A stretch of 64,000 nt of DNA, taken from positions 326,986 to 390,985 of the forward strand of contig NW_005201287.1 of assembly GCF_000372725.1 (NCBI RefSeq), in the 5' to 3' direction. Both the position numbers and the translations under genes were made by a program. Every line of letters starts with the position of its first letter. Within the stretch, counting starts at the first letter, position 1. The notes under the pieces were generated by a model. The model was not told where the DNA came from. It did not search any database and saw nothing but the letters and a program-made list of their open reading frames with translations. Origin of the DNA: Emiliania huxleyi CCMP1516 (lineage: Eukaryota). Below are positions 13,129-64,000 of the stretch, piece after piece.

Positions 13129-16100
13129 ATGGCGGGTAGCGAACAGGCCGTTCCTCCTCCCGCCACGCCTCGCTTCCCGCTCGGCGAGCCGGCGGAAGCC
13201 ACGGGCGGCGGGCTGCGCGGCCTCGTGCAGCAGAAAGAACGCGAGCTGCACGACATCAACGAGTATCGCATCCACGCTCTCGAGGGCCTCGTGGCGGACC
13301 GCGAGCGAGAGGCGCGCTCCGCCCCCTTCCGCCGCGCCGCGCTCCGCTGAGACCGAGCACACACCCGCCGTACCGCGCACCGCATTATCACCACCGTCAC
13401 TGCCACCACCAGCACCCGCGGCTGTTGCCGCCGCCGCCGCCGCCGCCCGCCCGCCCGCCTGCTGCCCGCAACTCGCCACCGGCTGCCAGCACGACCGGCT
13501 TGCCTTAGCCCCTCCGGCGACGGCAGGCGGAGGTGTCGCGCGAGCGGCTGGCGAAGCTCAAGGAGGACTTCACCTACAACCTCCGCCTCCTCGAGGAGCG
13601 GGACGCCGAGCTCGAGCGCTACGACGCCGCGTTTGCGAGCCTGCGCGCTGCTCTGCGCGACAAGGAGTCCGAGGCGTCGGAGCTGCGGATCGCGGCGGCG
13701 GAGGCGGCGCATGCGGTGGCGCACGAGCGCGAGGCCTCCGCAGAGGCTGGCCGCAAGCTCGAGGCGGCGGTGGCGCGCGGGCGGGAGGAGGCCGAGGCGA
13801 TCCGCTGGAAGAGAGAGGACGAGCTTCAGGATCCGCCGAGATCCGCCGAGATCCGGCGAGATCCGGCGAGATCCGGCGAGATCCGGCGAGATGTGCGGTG
13901 GGCTGGAAGAGATGAGAGGACGACTCGCAGCTGCCGGCGAATCTCACGCCATCTCGGCGAATCTCGGGGACTCGCGGCTAATCTCGGCAGATCTTGGGCA
14001 GTCTCGGCTGATCTCGGACGATCTCGGGCGATCTCGGGCGATCTCGCAGGCGCTGGCGGCGGAGCTGGAGTCGGCGAAGCGGACGGCGGCGCGCAGGGTG
14101 GCGGAGGCGGAGGAGGCGCTGAGTGCGGAGCGGCGCGACGGCGCGATGGCGCTGGAGGCGCACGGCAGCGTGGGGCGCGAGCAGACGGGTGGTCGGGTCT
14201 TGGGCTCTGAGGCTCTTTGGGCTCTGATGTCGGTAGGAGCACAGCCGCAGCTTGGAGAGAGGGCAGCGCGAGGCCAGAGCCGCTCGAGCAGCCTCCGCGC
14301 GCGTGAACGGCGTCTCCCCACCCGTCCAGAGCCGTGCGCAGGTGGTCGAGGCGCTCGAGCAGCGGCTGCGAGCTGCAGAGCACCGGGCGGCGGCGGCGGC
14401 GGAGGAGGAGGAGGAGGCGCGGGCGGCTGAGCGGCGCGAGGCGGCGCGCGCGGACGCGGCGGAGGGGCGGCTGGAGGCGGTGGCGCGGGCGGAGGAGGAG
14501 GCGAGGGGGGCGGTGGAGAGAGAGGCCGCGGCGCGGGTGGCGGCGGAGGCGGAGCTGGCTGCGGCGAGGGCAGAGGCGGCGGCTGAGGTGGCGGAGGCGG
14601 CGAGGGGAAAGGGGAAGGCGGAAGCCGAGGCGGAGGCGCTCCGCAGCGAAGTGGCGGCGGCGGCGGTCGCTTGCGACGCGGCGGAGGCGGCGGCGCGGCG
14701 GGCGCAGGCCGAGAGCGGCGAGGCGACGCAGAGGGCGGAGGCGCGGCTGGCGGCGGCGAGGGAGGAGGCCGCTGGAGACGCGTCGGCCGCCGCGCGCGCG
14801 CGCTCGCACTGCGTGGCGCTGCAGCGCGAGGTCGAGGAGGCGGAGGGGCGGCTCGCGGCGGCGGGCGCGGAGGCGCGCAGGCGAGAGGGAGGCTTGCGCG
14901 AGGAGAGCGCCGCAGAGGCGCCGCGTGAGGTGTGAACGGCGTCTCTTCAAGCGTCTGGCTGTGAACAGGCGCACGCCGCAGAGCTCGCCGCCGCCGAAGC
15001 GCGGCTCGAGGCGGCGAAGCAGGAGAGGGGGGACGGCCGCCCTCGACCTGTCCGCGGGCGGGTGTGTCCACGGGGTTGGTGGGTGCTTGTAGGAGAGGGA
15101 GGCCGCCGCGCGCGCCGCTCTGACGGCGGCGGACGAGGCGGCGGAGGCGGCGGCTGCAGAGGCGGGGGCGGTGCGGCGGGAGGCGGCGGAGGCGGGGGCG
15201 GAGAGGGACGCGGCCCTGGCGCAGCTGGCCGAGGCGACTGCGCGGCTGGCGAGGCGCGCGGCCGAGCAGGCGGAGACTTGTGGCACGAGGAGGCCCCTCT
15301 GAGGTCCGACTCCTCTGACTCGTGTTGCAGGCACGGCGCGGAGCAGGCCGAGGCGGAGGCGCTTCGCTCTCGCGCCGCCACGCTGGTGGAGGAGGCGAGT
15401 TGAGGACGAGAGTCGTGTCCCACGGCCGGGGAGGGAAGGAGGGGGTTCACTGGCTGACTGACCTCTCCCCCCCCCCCTCCTCCCCCCCTCTCTTGCTTCC
15501 CTCTCTCCCTCTCCGTGGACCAGGCCGCACGTCTCGAGGCGCTGGTGACTTCCCGCTGCCAGCAGCAGCCCGCCCAACCCAACCCAGCCCCTCCGCCCAA
15601 GGGAAGGAGGGGTCGCTGCGTAGGTGCCGCAGCTGCGGCAGGAGGTGGCGGACGCGCGGGCGGCCGCCGACGGCAACGCGGCGGCGGCGGCGCGGGCTGC
15701 TCAGCCCCTCGCCTTCGAGCTGGCATTGATTCCACGATGAGGCGTGGTGACTCCACGGGCTAGGCGCGGGCTGCTCAGCTCACATCCGAGCTCGAAGGCG
15801 CGAGGCGCGAGGCGGCCGAGGCGGCGGCGGCGGCAACCACCGCCCAGGCGACGGCGGCGGCGGCGGAGGCGGCCGCGTCCGCCGCCACCGTCGCGGCGGC
15901 GGAGTTCGAGGCCCGGCTCGAGGCGAGTCAGCTGCGGGCGGCGCAGGCGGAGGAGGCGCTGGACGCGCGCACGTCGCAGCTCGCCGCCGCCGCCCTCGGC
16001 ATCGCACCCGCGCCTCCTCCTCCCCCCGCCGCTGCCGGAGGAGGAGGAGGCGGAGGCGGGGACGACGAATCCCTGCCCTCTCCGCCGTCGCTGCCCGTGT

Positions 16101-33645: not shown

Positions 33646-33980
33646 ATGTTTGGAGCCCACGAGCGAATATTAGAGCTGCTGCTACAGCACGGCGCGGAGG
33701 TCAATCTGCAGAGCAGCAACAGCTACACCGCGCTGATGGGCGCCGCTTTTGGAGGCCACGAGCAGGTGGTCGAGCTGCTGATACGGCACGGCGCTGAGAT
33801 CAACCTGCAGAACAGCGGCGGCTCCACCGCGCTGATGAACGCCGCCAACACGAGCGGTTGGTCTATAGCTGCTAATTCGACAGATCGCGGAGATCAACCT
33901 GCAGAGCGGCTACACCGCGCTGATGCTTGTCGCTGGTGGTGGTCGAGCTGCTGCTGCGACACGGCGCGGAGATCAACCGA
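33646..33980 (+). pseudogene. Degenerate ankyrin-repeat fragment paralogous to the 22358-27223 gene
   Basis: HERILELLLQHGAEVNLQ..YTALMGAAFGGHEQVVELLIRHGAEINLQNSGGSTALMNAA, then frameshifts. Nucleotide sequence closely matches the ankyrin blocks at 22.5-25 kb. Confidence 0.8.
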
Positions 33981-40618: not shown

Positions 40619-43600
40619 CCAGATGCCTCCGTCCACGCGCACCAGGTTGGGCATCGTCAGAGTGGCGAGGTTGCGGTTGCCCGACACCTGTCGCGGTGGC
40701 GAGGGGCGCGGGGCTGCCTGGGCAGGGTGCGGTGTAGGGCGGTGCGAGGAGGGGAGGCAGTGCGGAGGGGGCGGGAGGGAGAGGCGCGCACGTGGATCTC
40801 TCCGCCCACTGGTGGCCAACCCCAACTCGCTCGGTGCAATTCCACCAGGTTGTTCATCGTCAGAGAGGTGAGGTTGGGGTTGTACTCCACCTGCCGCGGT
40901 GGCGAGGGCGCGGGGCTGGGCAGCGAAGCGGAGGAGGGGTGTGCGCGAGGCAGTTCGGGTCGAAGGAGCGGGAGAGAGGGGGGGGAGGCGCGCACCAAGA
41001 TGTTTCCCCCCACCACGCGCACCAGGTTGTTCATCGTCAGAGAGGCGAGGTTGGCGTTGGCCTGCACCTGTCGCGGTGGCGAGGGGCGCGGGGCTGGGCA
41101 GCGGTGCGGTGCAGGTCGCTGTCGCGGTGGCGAGGGCGCGGGGGAGGGGGGGCAGTGCGGAGGGGCGGGAGAGGGAGAGAGGCGCGCACGTAGAGGCCTC
41201 CGATCCTCACTTCCCGCAGGTTGTTCATCGTTAGAGAGGTGAGCTTGGGGTTGTTAAACACCTGCCGCGGTGGCGAGCCGCGGTGGCGAAGGCGCGGGGC
41301 TGGGCAGCGAAGCGGAGGAGGGGTGTGCGCGAGGAAGGGGGGCAGTTCGGATCGAAGGAGCGGGAGAGAGGGGGAGAGGCGCGCACGTTGATGCCATTGA
41401 TGCGCTCCAGGTTGTTCATCGTCAGCGAGGCGAGGTTGGCGTTGTTCTCCACCTGTCGCGGCGGCGAGGGCGGGGGGCTGGACAGCGGTGCGGTGCGCGA
41501 GGAGGGGAGGCACAGTGCGGAAGGAGCGGGAGAAACTGAGGGGGAGAAGCGCGCACGTAGATATCCCCGAACTCGGAGGGGAACGGCATCACTTCCCGCA
41601 GGTTGTCCATCGTCAGCGAGGTGAGGTTGGGGTTGCGCGTCACCTGTCGCGGTGGCGACGGCGCGGGGCTGGGCAACGGTGCGTTGTGGGGGTGTGCGGC
41701 AGGGGAGGCTGTGCAACCAACGGGGCGGGAGGGAGAGGCGCGCACGGAGATGTCTCCGACCACGTCCTCCAGGTTGGGCATCGTCAGAGTGGCGAGGTTG
41801 GGGTTGTACTCCACCTGTCGCGGTGGCGAGGGAGCGGGCTGGGCAGCGGTGCGGTGTAGGGCGGTGCGAGGAGGGGAGGCAGTGCGGAGGGGGCGAGAGG
41901 GGGAGAGGCGCGCACGGAGATGTCTCCCCCCACGTCCTCCAGGTTGTTCATCGTCAGCAAGGCGAGGTTGTCGTTGTGCGACACCTGTCACGGTGGCGAG
42001 GGGCGCGGGGCTGGGCAGAGGCGCGGTGCGTGGAGGGCGGTGCAAGGAGGGGCGGCAGTGCGGAGGGGCGGGAGAGAGAGAGGCGCGCACGTCGATGCCT
42101 CCGCCCACGCCCCGCAGGTGGTTCATCGTCAGCGAGACGAGGTTGTCGTTGGTCTTCACCTGTCGCGGTGACGAGGGCGCAGGGCTGGGCAACGGTGCGG
42201 TGTAGGGCGTTGCGAGGAGGGGAGGCAGTGCGGAGGGGGCGGGAGGGAGAGGCGCGCACGGAGATGTCTCCGACCACGTCCTCCAGGTTGTTCATCGTCA
42301 GAGAGATGAGCTTGGGGTTGTACTCCACCTGTCGCGGTGGCCGGGGAGCGGAGCTGGGCAACTGTGTGCGGTGTAGGGCGGTGCAAGGAGGGGAGGCAGT
42401 GCGGAGGGGCGAGAGGGGGAGAGGCGCGCACGTCGATGCCTCCGCCCACGCCCCGCAGGTGGTTCATCGTCAGCGAGACGAGGTTGTCGTTGGTCTTAAC
42501 CTGTCGCGGTGGCGAGGGCGGGGGGCTGGACAGCGGTGCGGTGTAGGGCGGTGCGAGGATGGGAGGCAGTGCGGAGGGGCGAAAGAGGGGGAGAGGCGCG
42601 CACGTCGATGTCTCCGACCACGTCCTCCAGGTTGTTCATCGTCAGAGAGATGAGCTTGGGGTTGTACTCCACCTGCCGCGGTGGCGGGGGAGCGGGGCTG
42701 GTCAGCGGTGCGGTGGAGGGCGGGAGAGGGGGAGAGGCGCGCACCCAGATGCCTCCGTCCACGCGCACCAGGTTGGGCATCGTCAGAGTGGCGAGGTTGT
42801 GGCTGGCCACCACCTGTCGCGGTGGCGGGGGAGCGGGGCTAGGCAGAGCGATATGGTGTAATGCGGTGCAAGGAGGGGAGGCAGTGCGGAGGGGCGGGAG
42901 GGGGAGAGGCGCGCACGAAGATGCGCCCGCTCACGTTCACCAGGTTGTCCATCGTCAACGAGGCGAGGTTGGAGTTGCTGTACACCTGTCGCGGTGGCGA
43001 GGGCGCGGGGCTGGGCAGCGGTGCGGTGCAGGGCGGCGCGAGGAGGGGAGGCAGTGCGGAGGGGGCGGGAGGGGGGAGAGGCGCGCACACCCCGATGCCT
43101 CCGAACCTTCCCCCTCGGGGTCCCCCGCCCGCGTACACCAGGTTGGGCATCGCCAGCGAGCCGAGGTTGTTGTTGACCGCCACCTGTCGCGGTGGCGAGG
43201 ACGCGCGGCTGCGGTGTAGGGCGGTGCAAGGAGGGGAGGCAGTGCGGAGGGGCGAGGGGGGGAGAGGCGCGCACGTCGATGTCTCCCCCCACGCCCCGCA
43301 GGTTGTTCATCGTCAGAGTGGCGAGGTTGAGGTTGAACCACACCTGTCGCGGTGGCGAGGGAGCGGGGCTGGACAGCGGTGCAGTGCAGGGCGGTGCGAG
43401 GAGGGGAGGCAGTGCGGAGGGGCGAGAGGGGGAGAGGCGTGCACGGTGATGTCTCCCCCTACGTCCTCCAGGTTGTTCATCGTCAGCAAGGCGAGGTTGT
43501 CGTTGTGCGACACCTGTCACGGTGGCGAGGGGCGCGGGGCTGCCTGGGCAGGGTGCGGTGTAGGGCGGTGCGAGGAGGGGAGGCAGTGCGGAGGGGGCGG

Positions 43601-44873
43601 GAGGGAGAGGCGCGCACGGAGATGTCTCCGTACTCCACGTGCAACAGGTTGTTCATCGTCAGCGAGATGAGCTTTTCGTTGTGCTCCACCTGTGTCGCGG
43701 TGGCGACGGCGCGGGGCTGGGCAACGGTGCGTTGTGGGGGTGTGCGGCAGGGGAGGCTGTGCAACCAACGGGGCGGGAGGGAGAGGCGCGCACGGAGATG
43801 TCTCCGACCACGTCCTCCAGGTTGTTCATCGTCAGAGAGATGAGCTTGGGGTTGTACTCCACCTGTCGCGGTGGCGGGGGAGCGGGGCTGGTCAGCGGTG
43901 CGGTGTAATGCGGTGCGAGGAGGGGAGGCAGTGCGAAGGGGCGAGAGGGGGAGAGGCGCGCACGTCGATGCCTCCGCCCACGCCCCGCAGGTGGTTCATC
44001 GTCAGCGAGACGAGGTTGTCGTTGGTCTTCACCTGTCGCGAGGGCGGGGGGCTGAGCAGCGGTGCGGTGTAGGGGTGTGCGGCAGGGGCGGCAGTGCGGA
44101 TGGGCGGGAGAGGGGGAGAGGCGCGCACCAAGATGCCTCCGTCCACGCGCTCCGGCTTGGGCATCGTCAGAGTGGCGAGGTTGGGGTTGTTCGTCACCTG
44201 TTCGCGGTGACGAGTGAGCGGTGCGGTGCAGCGGTGCGGTGCAGGGGTGTGCGGAGTGGAGGCGGTGCGGAGGGGGAGAGGCGGGGGGGAGAGGCGCGCA
44301 CACCCAAATGTCTCCGCGCACGTCCGCCAGGTTGTTCATCGTCAGAGAGATGAGCTTGGGGTTGTACTCCACCTGCCGCGGTGGCGAGGGGCGCAGGGCT
44401 GGGCAGCGGTGTGGTGGAGGGCGGTGAGGGGAGGGGGGGCAGTGCGGAGGGGGCGGGAGAGGGAGAGAGGCGCGCACGTTGATGGTCCTGCCAACGTTCT
44501 CCAGGTTGTTCATCGTCAGCGAGGTGAGGTTGGGGTTGCGCGTCACCTGCCGCGGTGGCGAGGGGCGCAGGGCTGGGCAGTGGTGCGGTGCAGGGCGGTG
44601 AGGGGAGCGGAGGGCCAGTGCGGAGGGGGCGGGAGGGGGAGAGGCGCGCACCAAGATACCCCCGAGCACGTCCCGCAGGCTGGGCAGGTTGACGTCTCCG
44701 CTTGCGTCGCCGTCAATCAAACTGCCGGTCACCGTTTGACACCCCTGCCGAAGCGCATCTGCCAGAAAGCGGTTTCCCTTACACACGACGGCAGGCGTCG
44801 CCACTTGGGCGGGAGCAAAGTTCGGCCCGCGTCCGGTCGGCAGCGCCAGGTTTGCATTCAGCACAGCCAACAT
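40619..44873 (-). CDS. Receptor-L-domain-like leucine-rich repeat protein, 1 leader exon + 23 single-repeat phase-0 exons; 3' end not found
   Basis: Leader exon 44652-44873 (..GCQTVTGSL....VNLPSLRDVLGGIL, an L-domain-type start). Then exons of 66-99 nt with consensus VxxNxxLxxLTMxNLxxVxGxI, each bounded by ..ccaccgcg(a/g)cag| and |gtgcgcgcctctccc. Confidence 0.85.
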
Positions 44874-48419: not shown

Positions 48420-49930
48420 ATGCGACTAGAGGAAAGCAGGCGCCAGGCGGGTGCCGTAGGGGTGGCTTTTGAGCGTGCTCGAGTGCTGACACTCGTAAAA
48501 AAGAAAAGAAAGCATTTGGACCGCCGCCCGGCCGCACCGCACTCTCCCGCCCGCCCGCAGGCACCGCCCTCGCCTCTCCGTCTCCGCGCCGCGCCAAGCG
48601 GCAGCGAGTGAGCCTCGCCGCATACACATCTCCCCCATATCTCCCCCATATCTCCCCATATCTCGAGTGAGCCTCGCCGCCGCCTCTGCCGGAGGAAGTG
48701 TCCGCGAGACTTCTCCGACCCTTCCCTGACCCTTCCTGCAGGTCTCGAGCGCCGCCTCGGCCGAGGAAGGGCCCGGCGCCACCCCGGCGAGCGGCGGGGC
48801 GGCGGGCGGCGGCGCGAAGGAGGCGGAGAAGGAGGAGGGCGAACGAGGAGGCCGAGGAGGACGAGGCGAGTCGGCTGCACCTGCTGCGCGTGAGGGTGAC
48901 TTTCCGGCCGGCTGCTCGGGAGGCGGCGGGGAGGGGCGAGGCGGACGGCGACGGAGAGGCGCGAGGGGGTAGGGGTGGTAGGAGGGGAGGGGAGGGGGGA
49001 GGGGGGGGGGGGGGGGGGCTCTTCACACGCGCAGCCTTTTCACAAGGGAAAGGGCTTCTGGCGGGGTAGGCGGAGGAGGGCGAGGCTGCGGACGACGGAG
49101 AAGTCGCGGAGGGAGGGGGGGAGCTGCAGCTGCAGTTCTGCTGCCTCGCCTCAGCGGGACTCCTCGCCTCAGCGCCGACCTCCCGCCCGCCACCCAGCCT
49201 CCCCTCCGGCCTGGCGCCGGACGAGGCGCTCGTGGCGCTGCTTCCCTCCGTCCCTTTCCGCTGGGTGAAGCAGCTCGAGCTCGGAGCCCGCCGGCCCGCC
49301 TCTTCACCGTCCAGCTAGCCCCACCCCTCCCCTCTTGAGTGCGTCCCAGGCGCAGGAGCTTGGCCCGGAGCTCCCGTCCGGCGCCGTGTCTGCGCACGCG
49401 CTGCCCGCCCTGCGCCGCTTCGAGCAGGTCATCGACGCGCTCTCCGCGCGAGTATCCGCCCGCGCCGACCTCGCCACGGAGCTGCAGCACCTCGAGCAGC
49501 GCCGGACCGCACCGCTCCCGCCCGCGCAGCCGCTCATGCCGCCCGCGCCCCTCGTCTCCGCCCTGACCGCCTGGACAGAGGTAGAGAGACCCCCCCCCCC
49601 CCCNNNNNNNNNNNNNNNNNNNNNNNNNNNNNNNNNNNNNNNNNNNNNNNNNNNNNNNNNNNNNNNNNNNNNNNNNNNNNNNNNNNNNNNNNNNNNNNNN
49701 NNNCCGAAAAACACCTCGCATTCCAACCATCCACCCACCCCACCCGCCCACCACCACCGCCCTCGCCCACCGTACACGCCCCCTACTCCGTATCCCACCA
49801 CCGCACCCCCCCTCCCCCTCCCTCCCCTTTCCCGGGCCCAGGTGGCGGACCCGACGGAACTGCCTCCTGCGACCGTTGCCGCGCTGGCGCGTGCGCCCGC
49901 TTGGCGCGTGCCGCCGAGCCCAGTCGGCAT
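48420..49930 (+). CDS. Hypothetical spliced low-complexity protein, spans a gap
   Basis: Exon-like stretches (RRANEEAEEDEASRLHLLR; LRRFEQVIDALSARVSARADLATELQHLEQRR) separated by intron-like atatctcccc repeats. Confidence 0.3.
49604..49703. other. Assembly gap (100 N)
   Basis: N run. Confidence 0.99.
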
Positions 49931-53883: not shown

Positions 53884-56800
53884 TCAAACGTACTGGCTCG
53901 CCGTGGCCCCGTCGTCCGCCGGGCCGCTGCTGGTCAGCTCGATGCTGCCCCTGTCGCCGCTGGCAGCGGAGGCGGGCGGGGGCGCGCGGGAGAGGGCGGC
54001 GTCGGCGGCGGCTGAGCCCGCGATGGCGAGGAAGACCGACTCGAGCGAGGGCTGCGTCGCCGAGTAGTCCAGCACGCCCAGGGCGCTCTTGGCCCCCTCC
54101 ATCTGCTCGAAGATGTCGTGCAGCAGCACGCCTGGCTCGCAGCGGGAGGACGGGGCGTGAGGCGCCGCGCCACTCCGTGGGTACGACGTGGAAGGCTGAG
54201 GACAGCTCGTTCTCAGACGGTCTACTCTCTGCTCCTCTCGGCTCGTCTCGGCGCGCCGCTCGGCAGCTCATACTTGGACCTGCCCGCCACGTGCTCGATC
54301 AGCCTCGCGCCGGGGAAGAGGCGGCACACGCCCTCGTGCGCCTCCTCGCCGCCTCCACCTCTGCCTCCTCCGCCGCCTCCGCCTCCGCCGCCCGCCGCCT
54401 CGCCCCCCACGCGCAGCTCGAGCGTGTACCCTCCGCCGTACTTCGACTTGAGGTGCTGCTGGCCGCCGAGGCAGCGCAGCCGGCCTGCGCCGTGGAGGAG
54501 GGCGGTCTCTTCCGGGCGCACTCAGAGGCGTGGAGCGGACGGCGTTCGACAACTGAGCACAGCTGACCACGTCGTCTCGAGTGCTAGTTTGACCGAAGAG
54601 CACGTGTTCAAGCATCTGCCCCAGCCGGCCGGCCGCCATCACCCCGACGCGCGAGCAGAGCGCCTCGCACTCCGCCATCGAGTGCGTCGTGAGCACGAGC
54701 GAGCGGCGGGACCTACCGCCGTCACACCGGGCCCGGGGCTGAGAACGCCTCTTGTGGACTCGGCCCAGCACGAGCGAGCGGCATCACCGCTCCGTGGCGA
54801 TGACGTCCCACATGTGTCGCCTGCTCTGCGGGTCCATCCCGCTCGAGGGCTCGTCGAGGAAGCAGACGGACGGGTCGCCCACCAACGCGATGGCGAGCGA
54901 GAGCTTGCGCTTGTTGCCGCCCGAGTAGGCGCCGCACACTCGGTCCGCAAACGGCGTCAGCGTCACCTGCTCGATCAGCGACTGCACGAGGCCGGGGAGG
55001 GCAGCCTCGTCCAGGTTCTTGAGGCGCGCGAACATGGTGAGCAGCTCGCGACCCGTCATGCGCTCGAGGAGCGGGTCCTCCTGCGGGCCACAGGAGGAGG
55101 TGTCTAGGAGGTGTCTAGGAAGTGTCCAGGAAGTGTCTCGAGGAGCGGGTCCTCCTGCGGGCCACAGGAGGAGGTGTCTAGGAAGTGTCCAGGAAGTGTC
55201 CAGGAAGTGTCTCGAGGAGCGGGTCCTCCTGCGGGCCGCAGTAGGAGGTGTCTACGAGGTGTCTAGGAAGTGTCCAGGAAGTGTCTCGAGGAGCGGGTCC
55301 TCCTGCGGGCCACAGGAGGAGGTGTCTAGGAGGTGTCTAGGAAGTGTCCAGGAAGTGTCTCGAGGAGCGGGCTCTCCTGCGGGCAGTAGCCGAGCTGCTC
55401 CCGCACGCGCGGCAGCTGCGTCGCGATGCTGAAGCCGCCCACCCACGCGCCACCCCTCGTGGGCGGGAACTCGCCCGTTAGCATTCCGATCGAGGTCGTC
55501 TTGCCGGCGCCGTTGACGCCGAGCAGACCGAAGCACTCGCCGTCGAGGATGCGCAAGGACAGGTCCGCGACCGCAACCTTGGGCGGCGCCCTGCCCCGCG
55601 CCGCGTACACCTTTTGGAGCCGGTGTGCCACTGCACGCGCGCCGCCCCGCACGCCTCCGCCGCCGCCTTCAACAAGCTCGCCGTGATTAACGATTCATTT
55701 ACTATTATTCATTTACTATAATTAACGATTCATTGCGCCGCCGCCTTCCACGAGATCGCGCACGGCGTCGGCCTCCGCCTGCACGTCTTATTTTCTTTTC
55801 TAATGATGAAGCGCTTGATAATAATTAATAAAAAAAGCGTCGGCCTCCGCCTGCACGTCCGCCTCGACGCAGCAAGCGCCCTCGGAGCGCAGCGCGCGCA
55901 GCGCCGCCTCCTCCGCCGTCCCACCCCGCCGTCGTGCACGCCGCTCGTACAGCACGCAGCCGAGGCCGGCCAGCAGCAGCAGCAGCAGCCCGAGGACGAG
56001 CAAGACGTAGTCGAGCGGCGTCGCCTCCGCCACCACACCTTCCCCGCCGGCGGGCGGCGCGTCGCCCTCGTTGTAGTTGAGCGCCGACTGCACCTCTCTC
56101 TCCGTGGTTCCGGCTGCGGCGACGGCGGTGGCGCCGAGGGCGAGCAGGAGCAGGGCGAGGGCGGAGGCGAGGCCGCAGCCGAGCCTGCTGCGGAAGGAGC
56201 AGGAGAGAGTCTCTCCGCCGAGCACTGCTGCCGCGGCGGCGAGGAGGGCGGAGCGGAAGAGGTAGGAGTACTCCGCGCCGAGGACGAGGGAGAAGAAGAG
56301 AAGCGCCTCGAGTGGGAGGAGGTAGAGCGCGCGCGACACCTCCTCGCTGCCGAAAGGGTCGTGCGGCTGCCCGCCGAGCTCCGCGAAGTACCACTCTTGC
56401 GTGAGAGCGAGCAGGGCTTGCCCGAAGTTGAAGGGCGGGAAGAGGCGGTAGAAGTGGACCAGCGCGCGGTCGGCGTCGACGGTGTTGGGCAGCACCTGCG
56501 GTCCACGTGAGGACGAGTCGTCGCCCTGCCCTCGGCGGTGCCGGCGGTGCCGGGCCGCACCTGCATGATCTGGTGTGCGAGGACCATCACGAAGCCCGTC
56601 GTCAAGTTGAAGACGAGGACGCCGATCTGCGCAGTCGAGTGCGAGAGGAAGAGGTGCGAGTAGCAGTACGCGAGCGGGATCGCCGCGAGGCCATACAACC
56701 ACAGCACGAGCGCCGTCGCGCCCGCCTGGGCCGCATTGCCGACGAAGCCGGGCTCGCCGTAGAGGCCGAAGACGGCCATCACTCCGAGCGAGACGAGGGA

Positions 56801-59800
56801 GGACATGCCTGCGTCCCAGAGGTAGTGGGCGAGCCAGTAGACGACGGGGTTGGTGCCCGAGACGAGCTGCAGGTGCTTCGCCTTGGAGTTTCGCTCCTTG
56901 ACAATGAGGGGCGCGACGGCGGCGGGCGCGTACGAGAGCGGGATGAGCACGAAGATGCCGGCGAGGAAGGCGAGCACCACTTGCACCTGCCGAGAGGGCC
57001 CGAGATGGCCCGAGATGGCCCGAGATGAGCCGAGAGGACCCGAGATTGCCCGAGAGGACCCGAGGGAGGCGAGCACCGCCTGAACCTGCGCCGACTCCAG
57101 CTGAGAATCACTAAGGGGCTCTCTTACATCTGAGCCGCCGGCCTGCGCCGACTGCGCCGCCGTGAGCGGCAGGGGATGGTTGTGCACCCGGTAGTAGGTG
57201 TCGGCTGAGGAGGAGGAGGGAGCGCCGGCGGAGGAGGAGGGAGCGCCGGAAAAGGCGGCGGAGGCGGTCTCGTTGTGGATTAACCGCCACGCCGCGGCGG
57301 AAACCTCCCCGAGCATCGCCGCGTTGGCGTGCGGCGACGACGCGTTGAACAGCACCGTCATCTCCGCCGCGACGCACGCCTCGATGCGGAGGGAGTCGGG
57401 AGGCGGCGCGCCGCTCGCCGAGCCCACGTCCACGTCGGGCAACCTCGACCACTCTGCAGGGTCGCCGAGACCGTACGCCGGCGCGGCGACAGAGATGCCG
57501 CTCTCGGAGAGCGTCACGCGCCCTGCCGACACCGCGACGGGCCCCGCGCCGTCGCTGGCGAAGGTGAGGTTGGGGGCGGAGATGGCGACGGCGGCGCGGG
57601 AGACGCGGATCTCGCCCAGCCGCAGGGTTGGCGAGGTGAGGGTGAGGGTCTCCTCCCCGAGAGGCACGGAGAGGGCGAGGTCGGACGCGTTGAGCAGGGC
57701 GGAGATGTCGATCTCGACGCCCTCGAGGGCGGAGATCGACGCCTCGCCCCCGGCGTGCACGTCGCGCAGGGCGGGCGCCACGCCGCTGAGCTCGAGGACT
57801 GCCCGCTGCTCGAGGGGGAGAGCGCCGAGCAAGCCGAGCAGCGCACCGGTGTCGAGCGGGAGGAGGCTGCCCGCTAGCGCGCCAACCTGCTCGCCGAGGA
57901 GGCCGATGCCTTGCTCGAACGCAAAGCTCCTTGCCAGCTGGCCGTTGACGGTCAGCGGGCAGGAGGGCGGCGCCGGCGGGGCGCCGACCGACCAGGAGGG
58001 GTTGGTGTACGAGGCGCCGGAGGCGGAGGCGGGCGGTGGGGCGGCGGGGTCGGCGGAGGGAGGAGCGAGCTGGCGGCAGAGCGCCTCGATGGTGCCCTCG
58101 AGGTATGCCGTCTCGCGCGTGCCGCCGCCTCCTCCTCCTCCGCCCGCCTCCAGCGAGAATGCGGCCTCGATCGCGGCCGCAAGCGCCTCCGTCGCGCTCA
58201 GCGGAGCGTCCCTCGAGCTGGACGCGACGGCGTCAACGGCGGCGAGGGCGGCGGCGAGGGCTGCCGGGTCGACACGGCTCGTGAGGTTGCCGAGTAGCTG
58301 TCCGGTGAGGATGCCGCCCAGCCCGCCGCCCGCTGCGAGGCCGCCCAAGCTGTCGAGCAGCTGCTGCGCGTCCTGCTCGTCCACCTCGCCGTCGCCATTG
58401 AGGTCGGCGACGCTCGAGTTGCCTCCGCCGAGGGTGAGGTTGGCCGCCGCCGCGAGAGCAGCGAGCTGCTGCGTGACGTCGGCCGGAAGGCTCAGATTCC
58501 CCGCGCCGCCCGGGGGCGACGCGCCGCTGCACCGGAGCAGCCCGAGGGCGACCGCAGCTCGCAATCGTCGCCCGCCGCCAGGGAGAGTCTCGCCGAGTTC
58601 CTCGGCGGAGACGTTGAGCCGGAGGGAGTCCGGGAGGGCGAGGGCGCCCACGCGGACGCACCTCTCGTGCTGACTGTACGTCTCGAGCATGTGCCGCGAG
58701 AGAGCCGCCGAATCGCCTGCCGGGACATGTCGCGGACATGTCGCGGACATGTCGCGGACACGTGCAGAGCGTGTGCCGCGAGAGGGCGCGGAGAGAGGCG
58801 CCTTGCACGCGGTCGAGAGAGAGCACGCTCCGCTCCGCGAGGGCGGCGACGAGCGGGTGCGAGGCGGGAGGCGAGTGCAGGAACTGGGTGGAGTCCGGCC
58901 CATCGCCGCGCGTGTAGAGCGAGGCGTCGAGCAGTATCCTAGACACTTCCGAGACACTCTCCGAGACGCTCTTCTAGGCGCGCGGAGAGGTAGGCGTCGA
59001 GCCGTCTCCTCGGCCCGACGCGCGGGTCGGGGAGGAGGAGGACGAGCATGGTGAGCGCGACGAGCAGTACCTGAGCTCGCGGGCAGCGGCAGCTGAGGAA
59101 GGGCCCCGCGGCGGGCAGGAGGGAGTCGACGTGTCTGCGACGTGTCTGCGACGTGTCTGCGACGTGTCTAGGAAGAAGCACCGGCAGCGCGTGCTGCAGG
59201 AAGAGTCCCTTGCGGTCGCGCTTGGCGCAGACTGCACGCTTCTGGAGCAGCACGCACAACTGCTTGCACGGCGAGGCGGCGCCGCTGCGGCGTGCGCCCA
59301 CGGAGGCGGAGGAAGACCTCCTCCATCGAGGTGAGCGAGACGCCTATTCACAGCAGCAGGGTGTGAAGAGAGGCGGAGGAAGACCTCCTCCATCGAGGTG
59401 AGCGAGACGCCTATTCACAGCAGCAGGGTGTGAAGAGAGGCGGAGGAAGACCTCCTCCATCGAGGTGAGCGAGACGCCTATTCACAGCAGCAGGGTGTGA
59501 AGAGAGGCGGAGGAAGACCTCCTCCATCGAGGTGAGCGAGACGCCTATTCACAGCAGCAGGGTGTGAAGAGAGGCGGAGGAAGACCTCCTCCATCGAGGC
59601 GAGCGAGACGCCTATTCACAGCAGCAGGGTGTGAAGAGAGGCGGAGGAAGACCTCCTCCATCGAGGTGAGCGAGACGCCTATTCACAGCAGCAGGGTGTG
59701 AAGAGAGGCGGAGGAAGACCTCCTCCATCGAGGTGAGCGAGACGCCTATTCATAGCAGCAGGGTGTGAAGAGAGGCGGAGGAAGACCTCCTCCATCGAGG

Positions 59801-62800
59801 CGAGCGAGACGCCGAAGCTCTGCAGGCCGAGCTGCGCCTGGGCCGCCGCGAGGTGGCGCAGGAGCGGGCCGAACGAGGCGGTGGAGGCGAACGGGAGGCG
59901 GAACGAGAGCTCGCCCGCGTGCTGCGAGAGGAGCTCGGCCTCGGGGACGAAGGAGCGGACGGCGGCGCCGACGGCGGTGGCGGAGCAGCTGCCCGGGCCT
60001 GTGCTGAGTGTGAGGGTGTACCCGAGGCCGAAGCGGCTCTTGAGGAAGAGCGAGGAGCCGGCACAGCGCAGCCGCCTAATTAATGACCAATTCATTCTTC
60101 ATTCTTCATTATGAAGTAAAGAGCGAGGAGCCGGCACAGCGCAGCCGCCTAATTAATGACCAATTCATTCTTCATTCTTCATTATGAAGTAAAGAGCGAG
60201 GAGCCGGCACAGCGCAGCCGCCTAATTAATGACCAATTCATTCTTCATTCTTCATTATGAAGTAAAGAGCGAGGAGCCGGCACAGCGCAGCCGCCTAATT
60301 AATGACCAATTCATTCTTCATTCTTCATTATGAAGTAAGGAGCGAGGAGCCGGCACAGCGCAGCCGCCTAATTAATGACCAATTCATTCTTCATTCTTCA
60401 TTATGAAGTAAGGAGCGAGGAGCCGGCACAGCGCAGCCGCCTAATTAATGACCAATTCATTCTTCATTCTTCATTATGAAGTAAAGAGCGAGGAGCCGGC
60501 ACAGCGCAGCCGCCTAATTAATGACCAATTCATTCTTCATTCTTCATTATGAAGTAAGGAGCGAGGAGCCGGCACAGCGCAGCCGCCCTGTCGAGAGGAC
60601 GGCGATGCGGTCGGCGAGCAAGTCGGCCTCGTCCATGTAGTGCGTCGTGAGCACGAGGACCTATTCACAGCAGCAGGGTGTGAAGAGAGCGCTGTTCACG
60701 CCTCGTCCATGTAGTGCGTCGTGAGCACGAGGACCTATTCACAGCAGCAGGGTGTGAAGAGAGCGCTGTTCACGCCTCGTCCATGTAGTGCGTCGTGAGC
60801 ACGAGGACCTATTCACAGCAGCAGGGTGTGAAGAGAGCGCTGTTCACGCCTCGTCCATGTAGTGCGTCGTGAGCACGAGGACCTATTCACAGCAGCAGGG
60901 TGTGAAGAGAGCGCTGTTCACGCCTCGTCCATGTAGTGCGTCGTGAGCACGAGGACCTATTCACAGCAGCAGGGTGTGAAGAGAGCGCTGTTCACGCCTC
61001 GTCCATGTAGTGCGTCGTGAGCACGAGGACCTATTCACAGCAGCAGGGTGTGAAGAGAGCGCTGTTCACGCCTCGTCCATGTAGTGCGTCGTGAGCACGA
61101 GGACCTATTCACAGCAGCAGGGTGTGAAGAGAGCGCTGTTCACGCCTCGTCCATGTAGTGCGTCGTGAGCACGAGGACCTATTCACAGCAGCAGGGTGTG
61201 AAGAGAGCGCTGTTCACGCCTCGTCCATGTAGTGCGTCGTGAGCACGAGGACCTATTCACAGCAGCAGGGTGTGAAGAGAGCGCTGTTCACGCCTCGTCC
61301 ATGTAGTGCGTCGTGAGCACGAGGACCTATTCACAGCAGCAGGGTGTGAAGAGAGCGCTGTCCACGCCTCGTCCATGTAGTGCGTCGTGAGCACGAGGAC
61401 CTATTCACAGCAGCAGGGTGTGAAGAGAGCGCTGTCCACGCCTCGTCCATGTAGTGCGTCGTGAGCACGAGGACCTATTCACAGCAGCAGGGTGTGAAGA
61501 GAGCGCTGTTCACGCCTCGTCCATGTGGTGCGTCGTGAGCACGAGGACCTATTCACAGCAGCAGGGTGTGAAGAGAGCGCTGTTCACGCCTCGTCCATGT
61601 GGTGCGTCGTGAGCACGAGGACCTATTCACAGCAGCAGGGTGTGAAGAGAGCGCTGTTCACGCCTCGTCCATGTAGTGCGTCGTGAGCACGAGGACCTAT
61701 TCACAGCAGCAGGGTGTGAAGAGAGCGCTGTTCACGCCTCGTCCATGTAGTGCGTCGTGAGCACGAGGACCCGGCCGGGCGCCGAGCGCTTCAGCAGTGA
61801 CCAGAGGGACCGGCGGGAGGCCGGGTCCATGCCCGAGGTGGGCTCGTCAAGCAGCACGCAGCGGGAGCCGCCCACGAGCGAGCAGCCCACCGACAGCTTG
61901 CGCCTCATCCCGCCCGACAGCGCGTGCGACCGCGTGTGCTCCTTGTCCGCTAGACCGACCTTGGCCACCATGGCCGCCGACGCGGTAGCGAGCTCGCCTC
62001 GGGGCACGCCCTTGAGGGCCGCGTAGTGCTGCATGTGCTCGGAGACGGTCAGGCTGCGCCAGAGGACGTCATGCTGCGGGCAGATGCCCATCAGCGTGTA
62101 GACGCGCCGCGCGCAGCGGCAGATCGAGAGACCAAACACGTAGCAGTCCCCTCGCGTCGGCGCGTACAGGCCGGTGAGCACGGACAGCGTCGACCTGTTC
62201 ACAGCAGCAGGTGTGAAGAGACGCCGTTCACACCCAAACCGGTGAGCACGGACAGCGTCGACCTGTTCACAGCAGCAGGTGTGAAGAGACGCCGTTCACA
62301 CCCAAACCGGTGAGCACGGACAGCGTCGACGTCTTGCCGGCGCCGTTGTGTCCGAGCAAGCAGGAGATCTGCCTATTAGTTATCAACTCGCTTGTAATCA
62401 ACTATTCATTCGTTGTGGCCGAGCAGGCAGGAGATCTGCCCCGGGTAAAAGGAGAGGTGCAGGTTGTCGACGGCAACCTTGCGCATCTTGCCTCGGCCGT
62501 AAACCTTCGTCAGGCCGACGATCTCGACCGAATCTCCCCCCGCCGCCAGGGAGGGAGGGACCGGCTCAAAGGCGGCGCCCTCCTGCGGGAGAGCCACCTC
62601 TGCGCGCGGCGATTGCAAGGACGGGCACCAAAAGGCGCGGCGCAGGAAGAAGAGCGGGTGGAGGGGTGCGCCGAAGCGAGAGGGGAGGACACGCTCGAGG
62701 TAGAGGGCGAGGGCCTAATTAATTGATGCTTCATGCTTCCTTATGAACTGGAGAGGGGAGGACACGGTCGAGAGGGCGAGGGCCTAATTAATTAGGTATT

Positions 62801-64000
62801 CATGATTCATTATGAAGTAGAGAGGGGAGGACACGCTCGAGGGGCGAGGGCCGTGTACAGCAGCGAGTCGAGCAGCAGCATCCAGAGCGAGAGAGCGAAG
62901 GAGTAGGGCGAGTCGGACCAGTTCTCGGGGCTCACGCCGACAGACGCGTACTCGTACTCGCCGAGCACGTCCGCGCCAAAGGCAAAGGCGGTGGGCGCCG
63001 CGAGCGAGGCCGCGATCTTGGCGCCCGTCTGCTCGAAGCGGTTGGTGCCTGAAGAGGTTGCCGAGCTCGTGATGGGCCGCGGCTCATGACGGGGGGGGGC
63101 GGGTGGGCGGGGCCTCGTGCCGCACATCAATATCTCCCCATATCTCCCCACATCTCCCCACATCTCGTGCCTGTGAAGAGGTACTTGGGCAGGACGAGGG
63201 CGAAGAAGGCGACCGGGCAGGCGGCGGCGGCGAGGACGGCGTTGGAGAAGCAGGCGGCGACGAGGAAGGAGAAGGCGACGCAGGTGAGGCAGAAGAGGGA
63301 GAGGTAAAGGAGCAGCACCCAGAAGGGCGTGTGCGGGAGGAAGAGGGAGCAGACGAGAGCGCAGAGCAGCGCGTTTGCTCCGAACTGGACGAGCGCAGTC
63401 GCATACCTGTCGGCGGCGGAGAGAGGGGGAGATAGGGGGAGAGATGGGGAGATATGGGGAGACATGGGGAGATATGGGGAGCCGCGAGGCGTGAGGGTTG
63501 ACTCGTGAGCAAGGCTCGGGGGAGGCGACGCGCACCACGATCCGACATGCACGCCGTGCCGCAGGCCCATGATGCGCCTGTTAATTAATACTTCATTCTT
63601 AATTAACAGCCGACATGCACGCCGCGCCGCATGCCCATGATGCGCATGGTCTGCGCGAGGCGCGTCTCCTTCTCCTCGACCACGGACTTGGTGAGCAGCG
63701 CGGCGGGGAAGAGCTGGCAGAGGGTGAGGAGGAGGGGCAGCAGCGACTGGACGGCGAGGTAGAACGGGTTCTGCGAGTAGGCGGCGGTGGGGAAGGGCGC
63801 CAGCCACGCCACGTCCGCGGGAGGAGGGAGGGGCTCGGCGCCGTGGCGGGCGGCGAGGCCAAACGCAAAGCCGTCGACGGCGCGCTGCAGCGTGAGGAAG
63901 CCGGAGGTGACGTACCTCTGGTACTCGGTGTCGAGGCCTAATTGATTAATTAATGATTGATTATTAATTCAAGCAGGTGACGTCCCTCTGGTACTCGGTG
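53884..64000 (-). CDS. ABCA: ABC transporter subfamily A (full-size, two NBDs), many introns, 5' end outside the window
   Basis: NBD1: [81 protein letters not shown]2: [61 protein letters not shown] motifs [13 protein letters not shown] and [15 protein letters not shown]. Confidence 0.95.
55063..55380. repeat. Intronic tandem array (4 units) of exon-start copy + 11-bp acacttcctgg/acacctcctag repeats in ABCA
   Basis: ctcgaggagcgggtcctcctgcggg.c.caggaggaggtgtctagg... is repeated. Confidence 0.85.
59303..59812. repeat. 67-bp tandem array (7 units) in an ABCA intron
   Basis: ctattcacagcagc recurs at 59344, 59411 ... 59746. Each unit includes exon sequence encoding VSL(A/T)SMEEVFLRL. Confidence 0.95.
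60046..60587. repeat. 73-bp tandem array (7 units) in an ABCA intron
   Basis: ctaattaatgacc recurs at 60076, 60149 ... 60514. Unit = exon piece (RLRCAGSSL) + AT-rich filler. Confidence 0.95.
60626..61770. repeat. 74-bp tandem array (15 units) in an ABCA intron
   Basis: ctattcacag recurs at 60661, 60735 ... 61697. Unit = 35-bp exon piece ([12 protein letters not shown]) + 39-bp filler. Confidence 0.96.

What the first reader, a model, noticed from the sequence alone, without database searches (positions are those of the whole stretch)
55063..63990. Introns built from a duplicate of the downstream exon start plus a short AG-ending filler: a candidate intron-generating mechanism
Seen: at least 9 ABCA introns begin with a ~18-45 bp copy of the first bases of the next exon, followed by a ~25-55 bp filler ending in AG. 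Minus-strand examples: GCAGATCTCCTGC(C/T)TGCTCGG(C/A)CACAACG around filler 62374-62412; GTCGACGCTGTCCGTGCTCACCGG at 62170-62332; GCGCATCATGGGC.TGCGGC.CGGCGTGCATGTCGG at 63542-63645; ACGTGCAGGCGGAGGCCGACGC at 55765-55858; also 62680-62850, 63905-64000, 55063-55380 and the three large arrays. The donor (GT/GC) lies inside the duplicated exon copy and the acceptor comes from the filler, so splicing restores the ORF exactly. Established: introner transposons (Micromonas, Aureococcus) make introns using a short TSD for one splice site. Inference: these duplications are far longer and variable, which suggests a different route such as staggered-break repair or target-primed insertion of short fillers.
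Basis: partly seen in the sequence, partly recalled or inferred. Interest (0 to 1): 0.85.

Follow-up and report, generated by a model that had tools for sequence, protein, structure and literature searches.

The report
Introns built from long exon duplications
In a gene of the alga Emiliania huxleyi most introns consist of a copy, up to about 40 bases long, of the neighbouring exon plus a short filler, and transcripts remove them cleanly; one filler recurs in unrelated genes, each time with its own duplication, so new introns likely arise by copying the tail of an existing intron into a staggered DNA break.

Summary
The window encodes an Emiliania huxleyi ABCA transporter. Of 18 introns mapped, 13 carry an exon duplication across the junction, against 0 of 306 swapped pairs. 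DNA of other isolates holds copy plus filler. One ~40-bp filler occurs at 19 distinct sites; all 19 end AG|GY, and 13 have their own 20-42 bp duplication (swapped control 1 of 342). Copy plus filler totals 65-75 bp. An intron in an unrelated gene carries 17 bases of this ABCA exon's duplicate, evidence that introns are copied from other introns. Best reading: an introner-like route in which an intron's 3' tail is copied into a staggered break. Introner duplications in the papers read are 3-9 bp. No empty-site allele was seen, so recent gain and an RNA template remain inferred.

The parts
54500..64000 (-). Part of an ABCA transporter gene (both ends lie outside this range)
   Evidence: Best hit E. 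huxleyi CCMP1516 protein, 95% over 152 aa; spliced model of 63937-54622 open for 1,959 aa with the L001 segment added
63938..64000 (-). 3' part of an intron: partial copy of the next exon start plus AT-rich filler ending AG; donor outside the window
   Evidence: RNA contigs stop at 63938 and run on; DNA X7 spans it
63578..63645 (-). Intron A, GC-AG, 68 nt: 36-nt copy plus 32-nt AT-rich filler with an 11-bp inverted repeat
   Evidence: RNA X1, X10, X11
63407..63535 (-). Intron B, GT-AG, 129 nt, 10-mer repeats, no long duplication
   Evidence: RNA
63049..63170 (-). Intron C, GC-AG, 122 nt, 10-mer repeats, only 7 nt shared across the junction
   Evidence: RNA X1, X11
62715..62851 (-). Intron D, GC-AG, 137 nt: two copy+filler units, AT-rich family; first copy has a 5-nt deletion absent from an X7 allele
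   Evidence: RNA X10, X11 skip 137; unspliced X1 contig spans both units
62373..62439 (-). Intron E, GC-AG, 67 nt: 29-nt copy plus AT-rich filler
   Evidence: RNA X1, X11
62195..62330 (-). Intron F, GT-AG, 136 nt: two units of 24-nt copy plus TGTGAAC-family filler; likely donor lineage of the L002/L014 intron
   Evidence: RNA X1, X10, X11
60661..61770 (-). Intron G (inferred), GT-AG, 15 units of 35-nt copy plus TGTGAAC-family filler
60076..60586 (-). Intron H (inferred), GC-AG, 7 units of 28-nt copy plus AT-rich filler related to D
59344..59812 (-). Intron I (inferred), GC-AG, 7 units of ~40-nt copy plus 5'-truncated TGTGAAC filler (27 nt)
59302..59303 (-). Place where the window lacks 320 nt of coding sequence present in L001, joined at a 9-nt microhomology
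   Evidence: RNA contigs run on 360 nt past 59290, which fits the longer form (lengths only)
59071..59181 (-). Intron J, GT-AG, 111 nt, 11-mer repeats, no clear duplication
   Evidence: RNA pieces
58939..59008 (-). Intron K, GA-AG, 70 nt: decayed 31-nt copy (6 mismatches) plus filler
   Evidence: RNA pieces
58717..58801 (-). Intron L, GC-AG, 85 nt: decayed, gapped copy plus 11-mer filler
   Evidence: RNA joint; local score 16
56987..57142 (-). Intron M, GC-AG, 156 nt; an internal decayed 29-nt copy of the next exon start, not at the 5' end
   Evidence: RNA joint
56496..56560 (-). Intron N, GT-AG, 65 nt, weak duplication trace (score 14, 6 mismatches)
   Evidence: RNA joint
55779..55850 (-). 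Intron O, GC-AG, 72 nt: both splice sites inside a perfect 23-nt duplication; AT-rich filler
   Evidence: RNA joint
55667..55744 (-). Intron P, GC-AG, 78 nt: both splice sites inside a 24-nt duplication; AT-rich filler
   Evidence: RNA joint
55081..55376 (-). Intron Q, GA-AG, 296 nt: four units, splice sites inside the duplicate, 11-mer filler
   Evidence: RNA joint skips 296 in X1, X12, X3
54713..54787 (-). Intron R, GT-AG, 75 nt: decayed 21-nt copy plus filler
   Evidence: RNA joint
14903..14968 (+). Further, more decayed TGTGAAC-family copy in another gene of the window, AG|GC; start is the implied one
   Evidence: not RNA-tested

Best explanation
These are spliced introns made of a 20-42 bp duplication of exon sequence plus a short filler from dispersed families, and they likely arise when a staggered break in an exon is repaired by copying in the 3' tail of an already existing intron. 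Shown: the structure, the splicing, the same filler at unrelated genes with site-specific duplications, a constant 3' end at AG and a variable 5' end. Inferred steps: (1) two offset nicks 20-42 nt apart define the duplication; (2) synthesis copies a donor intron backwards from its 3' AG for about 27-52 nt, sometimes into the donor's own duplicate; (3) the new strand rejoins the end of the first copy through 2-5 nt of microhomology; (4) the insertion survives when the duplicate supplies a GT, GC or GA donor and the filler or the duplicate supplies AG, so the mRNA is unchanged; (5) slippage or unequal crossover between the two copies expands units into arrays; (6) the intronic copy then decays. 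An RNA template with a reverse transcriptase acting in trans is favoured over a DNA template, but this is untested.
For: 13 of 18 introns duplicated versus 0 of 306 swapped pairs. 15 of 18 removed in RNA contigs of studies P1, P2, P6, P7. The filler family is at 19 distinct sites (43 copies collapsed); 19 of 19 are followed by GT/GC against a background of 0.18. 13 of 19 have an own-site duplication versus 1 of 342 swapped. Removing the implied intron gives sense-strand frames, two of which I recognise by recall as SNF2 and helicase-C motifs (L006, L009). Microhomology of 2 nt or more at the 5' junction in 4 of 6 testable copies, background 0.094 (2 further copies dropped for a linker). The L002/L014 intron matches window intron F over 54 of 57 nt, including 17 nt of ABCA exon-derived sequence; this is the best of 91 pairs, and L002 has no tblastn hit to two ABCA proteins. 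The two bases that differ there read as in L002 in X7, X10 and X11 (62237-62238). Summed contig depth over the filler is about 100,000 against about 85 beside it in X7, with loose ends at its borders (not a copy number). Other filler types with long duplications occur in L003, L004 and L012.
Against: No empty-site allele: X7, X8 and L001 hold every intron they cover, so gain is inferred from copy identity alone. No intergenic or antisense copy with an intact 3' end among 19 sites, which random insertion would predict; this needs targeting or biased sampling. Copy and filler lengths are anticorrelated (rho -0.90, sum 65-75, n=13), which the model does not explain by itself. The capture of donor sequence rests on one site. 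The microhomology test has n=6 and I chose the core by eye. 6 of 19 family sites and 5 of 18 ABCA introns show no clear ungapped duplication. No enzyme or autonomous element was identified. Fourteen of the loci were fetched because they hold the filler.
Confidence: 0.62

Rival explanations
1. Remodelling of old introns. The introns existed first (spread by an ordinary introner without long duplication); a break near the 5' end was repaired on spliced mRNA or cDNA, copied the next exon start, then rejoined the intron remnant by microhomology.
For: Explains the exact AG|exon junction, sense orientation, 19 of 19 GY, variable 5' truncation, microhomology and a roughly constant length. No empty site was seen.
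Against: Needs nearly every family member to be remodelled (18 of 19 score 8 or more against 63 of 342 swapped). Does not give duplications on both sides of the splice point (introns O, P, Q) or ABCA exon bases inside the L002 intron.
Confidence: 0.17
2. A non-autonomous DNA transposon (MITE-type Introner) whose transposase makes unusually long target duplications.
For: Repeated filler with a carried 3' splice site and a co-opted donor is the Introner pattern (PMC9860276, passages). Filler A has a perfect 11-bp inverted repeat (z -5.4).
Against: Duplication length varies from 20 to 42 nt and filler length from 27 to 52 nt within one family. The TGTGAAC filler has no terminal inverted repeats, and its internal hairpin is not unusual (z -0.6 to -1.0). 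1 of 7 fillers folded had a significant structure.
Confidence: 0.1
3. Local tandem duplication of exon sequence with locally generated repair filler (Daphnia-type staggered break or tandem genomic duplication), with no copying between loci.
For: O, P and Q take both sites from a duplicated AG|GY or AG|GA. Several AT-rich fillers look like slippage products with internal repeats.
Against: The same filler sits in unrelated genes at 19 sites, and Daphnia repeats are 4-12 bp (PMC4202315, passage). It may still hold for some AT-rich fillers.
Confidence: 0.08
4. Assembly artefact or pseudogene.
For: The window lacks 320 nt beside one array, and array copy numbers are unverified.
Against: Other DNA runs and a metagenome locus hold the structures; RNA contigs splice them out.
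Confidence: 0.03

Closest known systems
Introners / introner-like elements with target-site duplication (Micromonas, Aureococcus, Symbiodinium, Polarella; PMC9860276, bioRxiv 10.1101/2020.10.14.339549)
   Same: Sequence-similar introns at unrelated genes; 3' splice site carried and donor co-opted from the duplication, or both from it; mRNA unchanged; GA donors tolerated in young introns.
   Different: Reported duplications are 3-9 bp and fixed per family; here 20-42 bp and variable. The 5' end of the filler varies, there are no terminal inverted repeats in the main family, and a third to over half of the intron is host exon sequence.
E. huxleyi CCMP1516 introner families in Dataset sd07 of PMC12130899
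   Same: Same species. One family of 5 copies is about 68 nt, 'co-opt 5' carry 3'', noted with '10bp terminal direct repeats', and could overlap the TGTGAAC family.
   Different: Listed with a duplication of 2 or 4 nt or none, and 5, 6 and 45 copies; no long site-specific duplication appears in the six rows seen.
Intron gain by staggered double-strand-break repair in Daphnia pulex (PMC4202315)
   Same: New intron = direct repeat of adjacent exon end plus inserted, often AT-rich sequence.
   Different: Repeats are 4-12 bp and the insert source is mostly unknown; here they are 20-42 bp with inserts from multi-locus families.
Intron gain by tandem genomic duplication (reviewed in PMC3443670)
   Same: A duplicated AG|GY supplies both splice sites (introns O, P, Q).
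   Different: There the intron is wholly duplicated exon; here about half is foreign filler.
Target-primed reverse transcription by non-LTR retrotransposons (recalled, not from a call)
   Same: Variable duplication, fixed 3' end, variable 5' truncation, 5' microhomology, occasional carry-over of donor flank.
   Different: No poly(A) or simple-repeat tail; inserts only about 27-52 nt; no partner element identified.

Membership tests
Introner (broad: repeated intron-creating element) | Similar intron sequence at many unrelated loci | tested here: met
   19 distinct sites in window plus 14 loci
Introner (broad: repeated intron-creating element) | Spliced out with mRNA restored | tested here: met
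   15 of 18 ABCA introns in RNA contigs, one of them (F) of this family; other family loci only by open frame
Introner (broad: repeated intron-creating element) | Recent insertion shown by an empty orthologous site | tested here: inconclusive
   X7, X8 and L001 all hold the introns they cover; no sister-species DNA obtained
MITE-type (DNA transposon) Introner | Short fixed target duplication, 3-9 bp | tested here: not met
   20-42 bp, variable
MITE-type (DNA transposon) Introner | Terminal inverted repeats and fixed element ends | tested here: not met
   Filler 27-52 nt with variable 5' end; inverted repeat only in filler A, 1 of 7 folded
MITE-type (DNA transposon) Introner | Cognate transposase in the genome | not testable with these tools
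   No genome held
Non-LTR/TPRT-mobilised insert | Variable duplication, fixed 3' end, 5' truncation with microhomology | tested here: met
   (microhomology 4 of 6, small sample)
Non-LTR/TPRT-mobilised insert | Poly(A) or simple-repeat 3' tail | tested here: not met
   Family ends in GCTGTGAAYAG directly against the duplicate (the pattern itself required this end)
Non-LTR/TPRT-mobilised insert | Autonomous partner with reverse transcriptase sharing the 3' end | not testable with these tools
   No genome held
Tandem genomic duplication intron | Intron consists only of duplicated exon | tested here: not met
   A non-exon filler is present in every case
Daphnia-type staggered-break intron | Short (4-12 bp) flanking repeat with a unique insert | tested here: not met
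   Long repeats and family inserts

The most novel reading that the evidence does not exclude
E. huxleyi propagates introns serially through splicing products: a reverse transcriptase, primed at a break in an expressed exon, copies the 3' end of an excised intron onto a position already read as a GT/GC/GA donor. Any intron can then found a family, each new intron is spliceable from birth and about 70 nt long, and this route made much of the species' intron complement, including its 10-11-mer repeat introns.
Probability: 0.3. Interest if true: 0.93.

Novelty: new variant of a known kind. Interest (0 to 1): 0.78.

Why it matters
The source of most new spliceosomal introns is unresolved. Here each intron records its own birth: the target is duplicated over 20-42 bases, the filler can be traced to families, and in one case to a specific donor intron. 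That makes direction, age (copy divergence) and template type directly measurable across a genome with many sequenced strains. Introner searches that cluster whole introns would under-count such elements, because much of each intron is site-specific. The structures may also mislead gene prediction: the deposited protein P0001 lacks residues next to several of these introns.

Tried and rejected
No genome held, so no genome-wide test. Filler patterns found nothing in viral contigs or prokaryote genomes. Earlier findings: none returned. A Pfam scan of L002 flanks failed on stop codons and was replaced by translation and tblastn in scripts. A strict scan of 81,957 nt gave 8 AG|GY hits against 0, 2 and 0 for three control dinucleotide pairs, but it dropped known cases (length multiple of three, low complexity) and one hit is an ankyrin repeat, so it is only a weak control. 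In one search two window sites were scored at the first array unit, which inflated them; one search repeats this at the last unit. A conserved hairpin as a shared mobility signal was not supported. Rolling-circle copying of a circular intron as the source of arrays is disfavoured at Q, where internal units match the exon copy and not the first copy. P0002 (70%) runs unbroken across these positions, but whether it comes from DNA or RNA is unknown, so it says nothing on empty sites. Ten paper searches listed no description of long exon duplications in E. huxleyi introns; the library lacks most subscription papers, I did not see the 2013 genome paper or its supplements (recalled), and files 13-14 of the PMC12130899 supplement were not searched.
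Full report
Identity. The minus strand of 54500-64000 encodes part of an ABCA transporter. A 152-aa exon finds an Emiliania huxleyi CCMP1516 protein at 95% identity as best hit, the next at 70%. No whole genome was held.

Observation. I placed 18 introns between 54713 and 63645 by looking for GT/GC/GA..AG registers at the lengths that RNA contigs or repeat periods give. Comparing each intron's 5' junction with its 3' junction, 13 of 18 score 10 or more ungapped, against 0 of 306 swapped pairs; by gapped score of 14 or more, 14 of 18 against 4 of 306. Copies range from perfect (F, G, H, O) to decayed (K, L, N, R). B, C and J show no long duplication, and M has one internally.

Splicing. Sixteen runs were listed; I laid seven, on two stretches. 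On 61780-64000, contigs of X1, X10 and X11 skip 68, 129, 122, 137, 67 and 136 nt, read from piece coordinates; not every run bridges every intron. On 54500-59290, X1, X12 and X3 give joints of 75, 296, 155 with 5 letters between (72+78), 65, 156 and 85 nt, and pieces fit 111 and 70 nt. These runs belong to four studies (P1, P2, P6, P7). X1 and X3 are not on record as RNA but skip introns. X1 otherwise matches the window exactly and shows 2, 2 and 3 other letters in the pieces covering A, E and P, the number of mismatches between the two copies; I infer that mRNA keeps the downstream copy at A and E and the upstream part at P. DNA-like runs X7 and X8 and locus L001 hold copy plus filler, with small indels in intronic parts. 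Only contigs were available, no raw reads. With them removed as single introns and 320 nt from L001 added at 59302/59303, the model reads 1,959 aa without a stop; without that segment it loses frame.

Corrections. In A, D, E, F, G, H, I, K, L and R the filler supplies AG and the copy supplies the donor. In O, P and Q both sites lie inside the duplication. K and Q fit only GA donors, as reported for young dinoflagellate introns (bioRxiv 10.1101/2020.10.14.339549, parts 1-2 of 4 read).

The filler is a family. F, G and I share a filler ending GCTGTGAAYAG. In X7 the summed contig depth over it is about 100,000 against about 85 beside it, with loose ends at its borders (the tool warns this is no copy number). 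One scan of metagenome contigs gave 14 loci. Window and loci hold 43 copies at 19 distinct sites; 19 of 19 are followed by GT or GC against a background of 0.18. Thirteen of 19 have their own duplication of 20-42 nt, against 1 of 342 swapped pairs; six are weak. Filler length is 27-52 nt with a fixed 3' end. Copy and filler lengths are anticorrelated (rho -0.90), with sums of 65-75 nt. Four of six testable copies share 2 nt or more between the end of the copy and the start of the filler core (background 0.094); two further copies were dropped for a linker. Other filler types with long duplications occur in L003, L004 and L012 and in another gene of the window.

Intron-to-intron copying. The intron in L002 (same site as L014) has its own 20-nt duplication, then a 12-nt linker, then the filler. 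The linker with five bases before it equals part of the duplicate in ABCA intron F: 54 of 57 nt match to the AG, the best of 91 pairs among 14 sites, and the linker occurs once in the window, in the ABCA exon. The two internal differences read as in L002 in X7, X10 and X11. L002 has no tblastn hit to two ABCA proteins. Those bases code for residues just after the Walker A motif (motif name recalled), so the direction is most simply from the ABCA intron lineage to L002. This is a single site.

Mechanism. The best fit is repair of a staggered break in an exon by copying the 3' tail of an existing intron, closed by microhomology, with survival of spliceable cases, later expansion of units between the two copies, and decay of the intronic copy. 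Fixed 3' end, variable 5' end, microhomology and flank carry-over resemble target-primed reverse transcription (recalled), but there is no tail and no partner element was found. The uniform AG|GY and the sense orientation of the frames examined suggest coupling to transcription or splicing, or biased sampling toward genes. The constant total length is unexplained; selection on intron size is one possibility. The main rival is remodelling of pre-existing introns on spliced RNA. No empty site was seen in X7, X8 or L001, so gain is inferred.

Comparison. Introner duplications are given as 3-9 bp (PMC9860276, passages) and 3-8 nt in Polarella (parts 1-2). Daphnia exon-intron repeats are 4-12 bp (PMC4202315, first part and passages). 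Tandem genomic duplication has no filler (PMC3443670, passages). PMC12130899 does not name E. huxleyi in its main text (passage search), but its dataset lists three small families with duplication 2, 4 or none; one is about 68 nt with '10bp terminal direct repeats' and may overlap this family (files 13-14 not searched). Passages of PMC11282704, PMC10996645, PMC13518057 and bioRxiv 10.1101/2024.05.26.595999 showed no such structure. Ten searches listed no description of it; the library is incomplete.

Verdict. A real, spliced, multi-locus feature. It works like an Introner but fails the short fixed duplication and fixed-end tests of the DNA-transposon type. New variant of a known kind; interest 0.78.

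Noticed in passing
window 59302-59303: The window lacks 320 nt of coding sequence found in L001, joined at a 9-nt microhomology next to an array; likely an assembly collapse, possibly a haplotype deletion.
   Followed up: partly
window 15690-15763, 16948-17049, 17304-17398, 14277-14363 (+ strand): More copy-filler-copy units in another gene (16-27 nt copies, periods 68-78); the one at 17304 appears to need a GA donor. Not RNA-tested.
   Followed up: partly
window 48605-48680: 17-nt duplication around a 10-11-mer ATCTCCCC-type filler, period 59.
   Followed up: no
window 56987-57142: Intron M looks like two nested events: a 10-nt repeat of the upstream exon end, then a decayed copy of the next exon start.
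   Followed up: partly
window 63130-63204, 63430-63504, 55095-55360: 10-11-mer intronic repeats draw very high summed contig depth in all runs laid, so they are also dispersed families.
   Followed up: no
window 41595-44679: Large degenerate tandem array, period about 170/341 nt.
   Followed up: no
window 22498-25033 and 33673-33978: 99/102-nt coding repeats of ankyrin type (label recalled from the period and motif), in several separate blocks.
   Followed up: no
L003 902-1093: Overlapping duplications at periods 60, 111 and 114 with AT-rich fillers, suggesting repeated insertions at one site.
   Followed up: no
P0001 versus window 62140-62200 and 62440-62860: The deposited protein lacks residues beside several duplication introns, suggesting mis-splicing by automated annotation.
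   Followed up: partly
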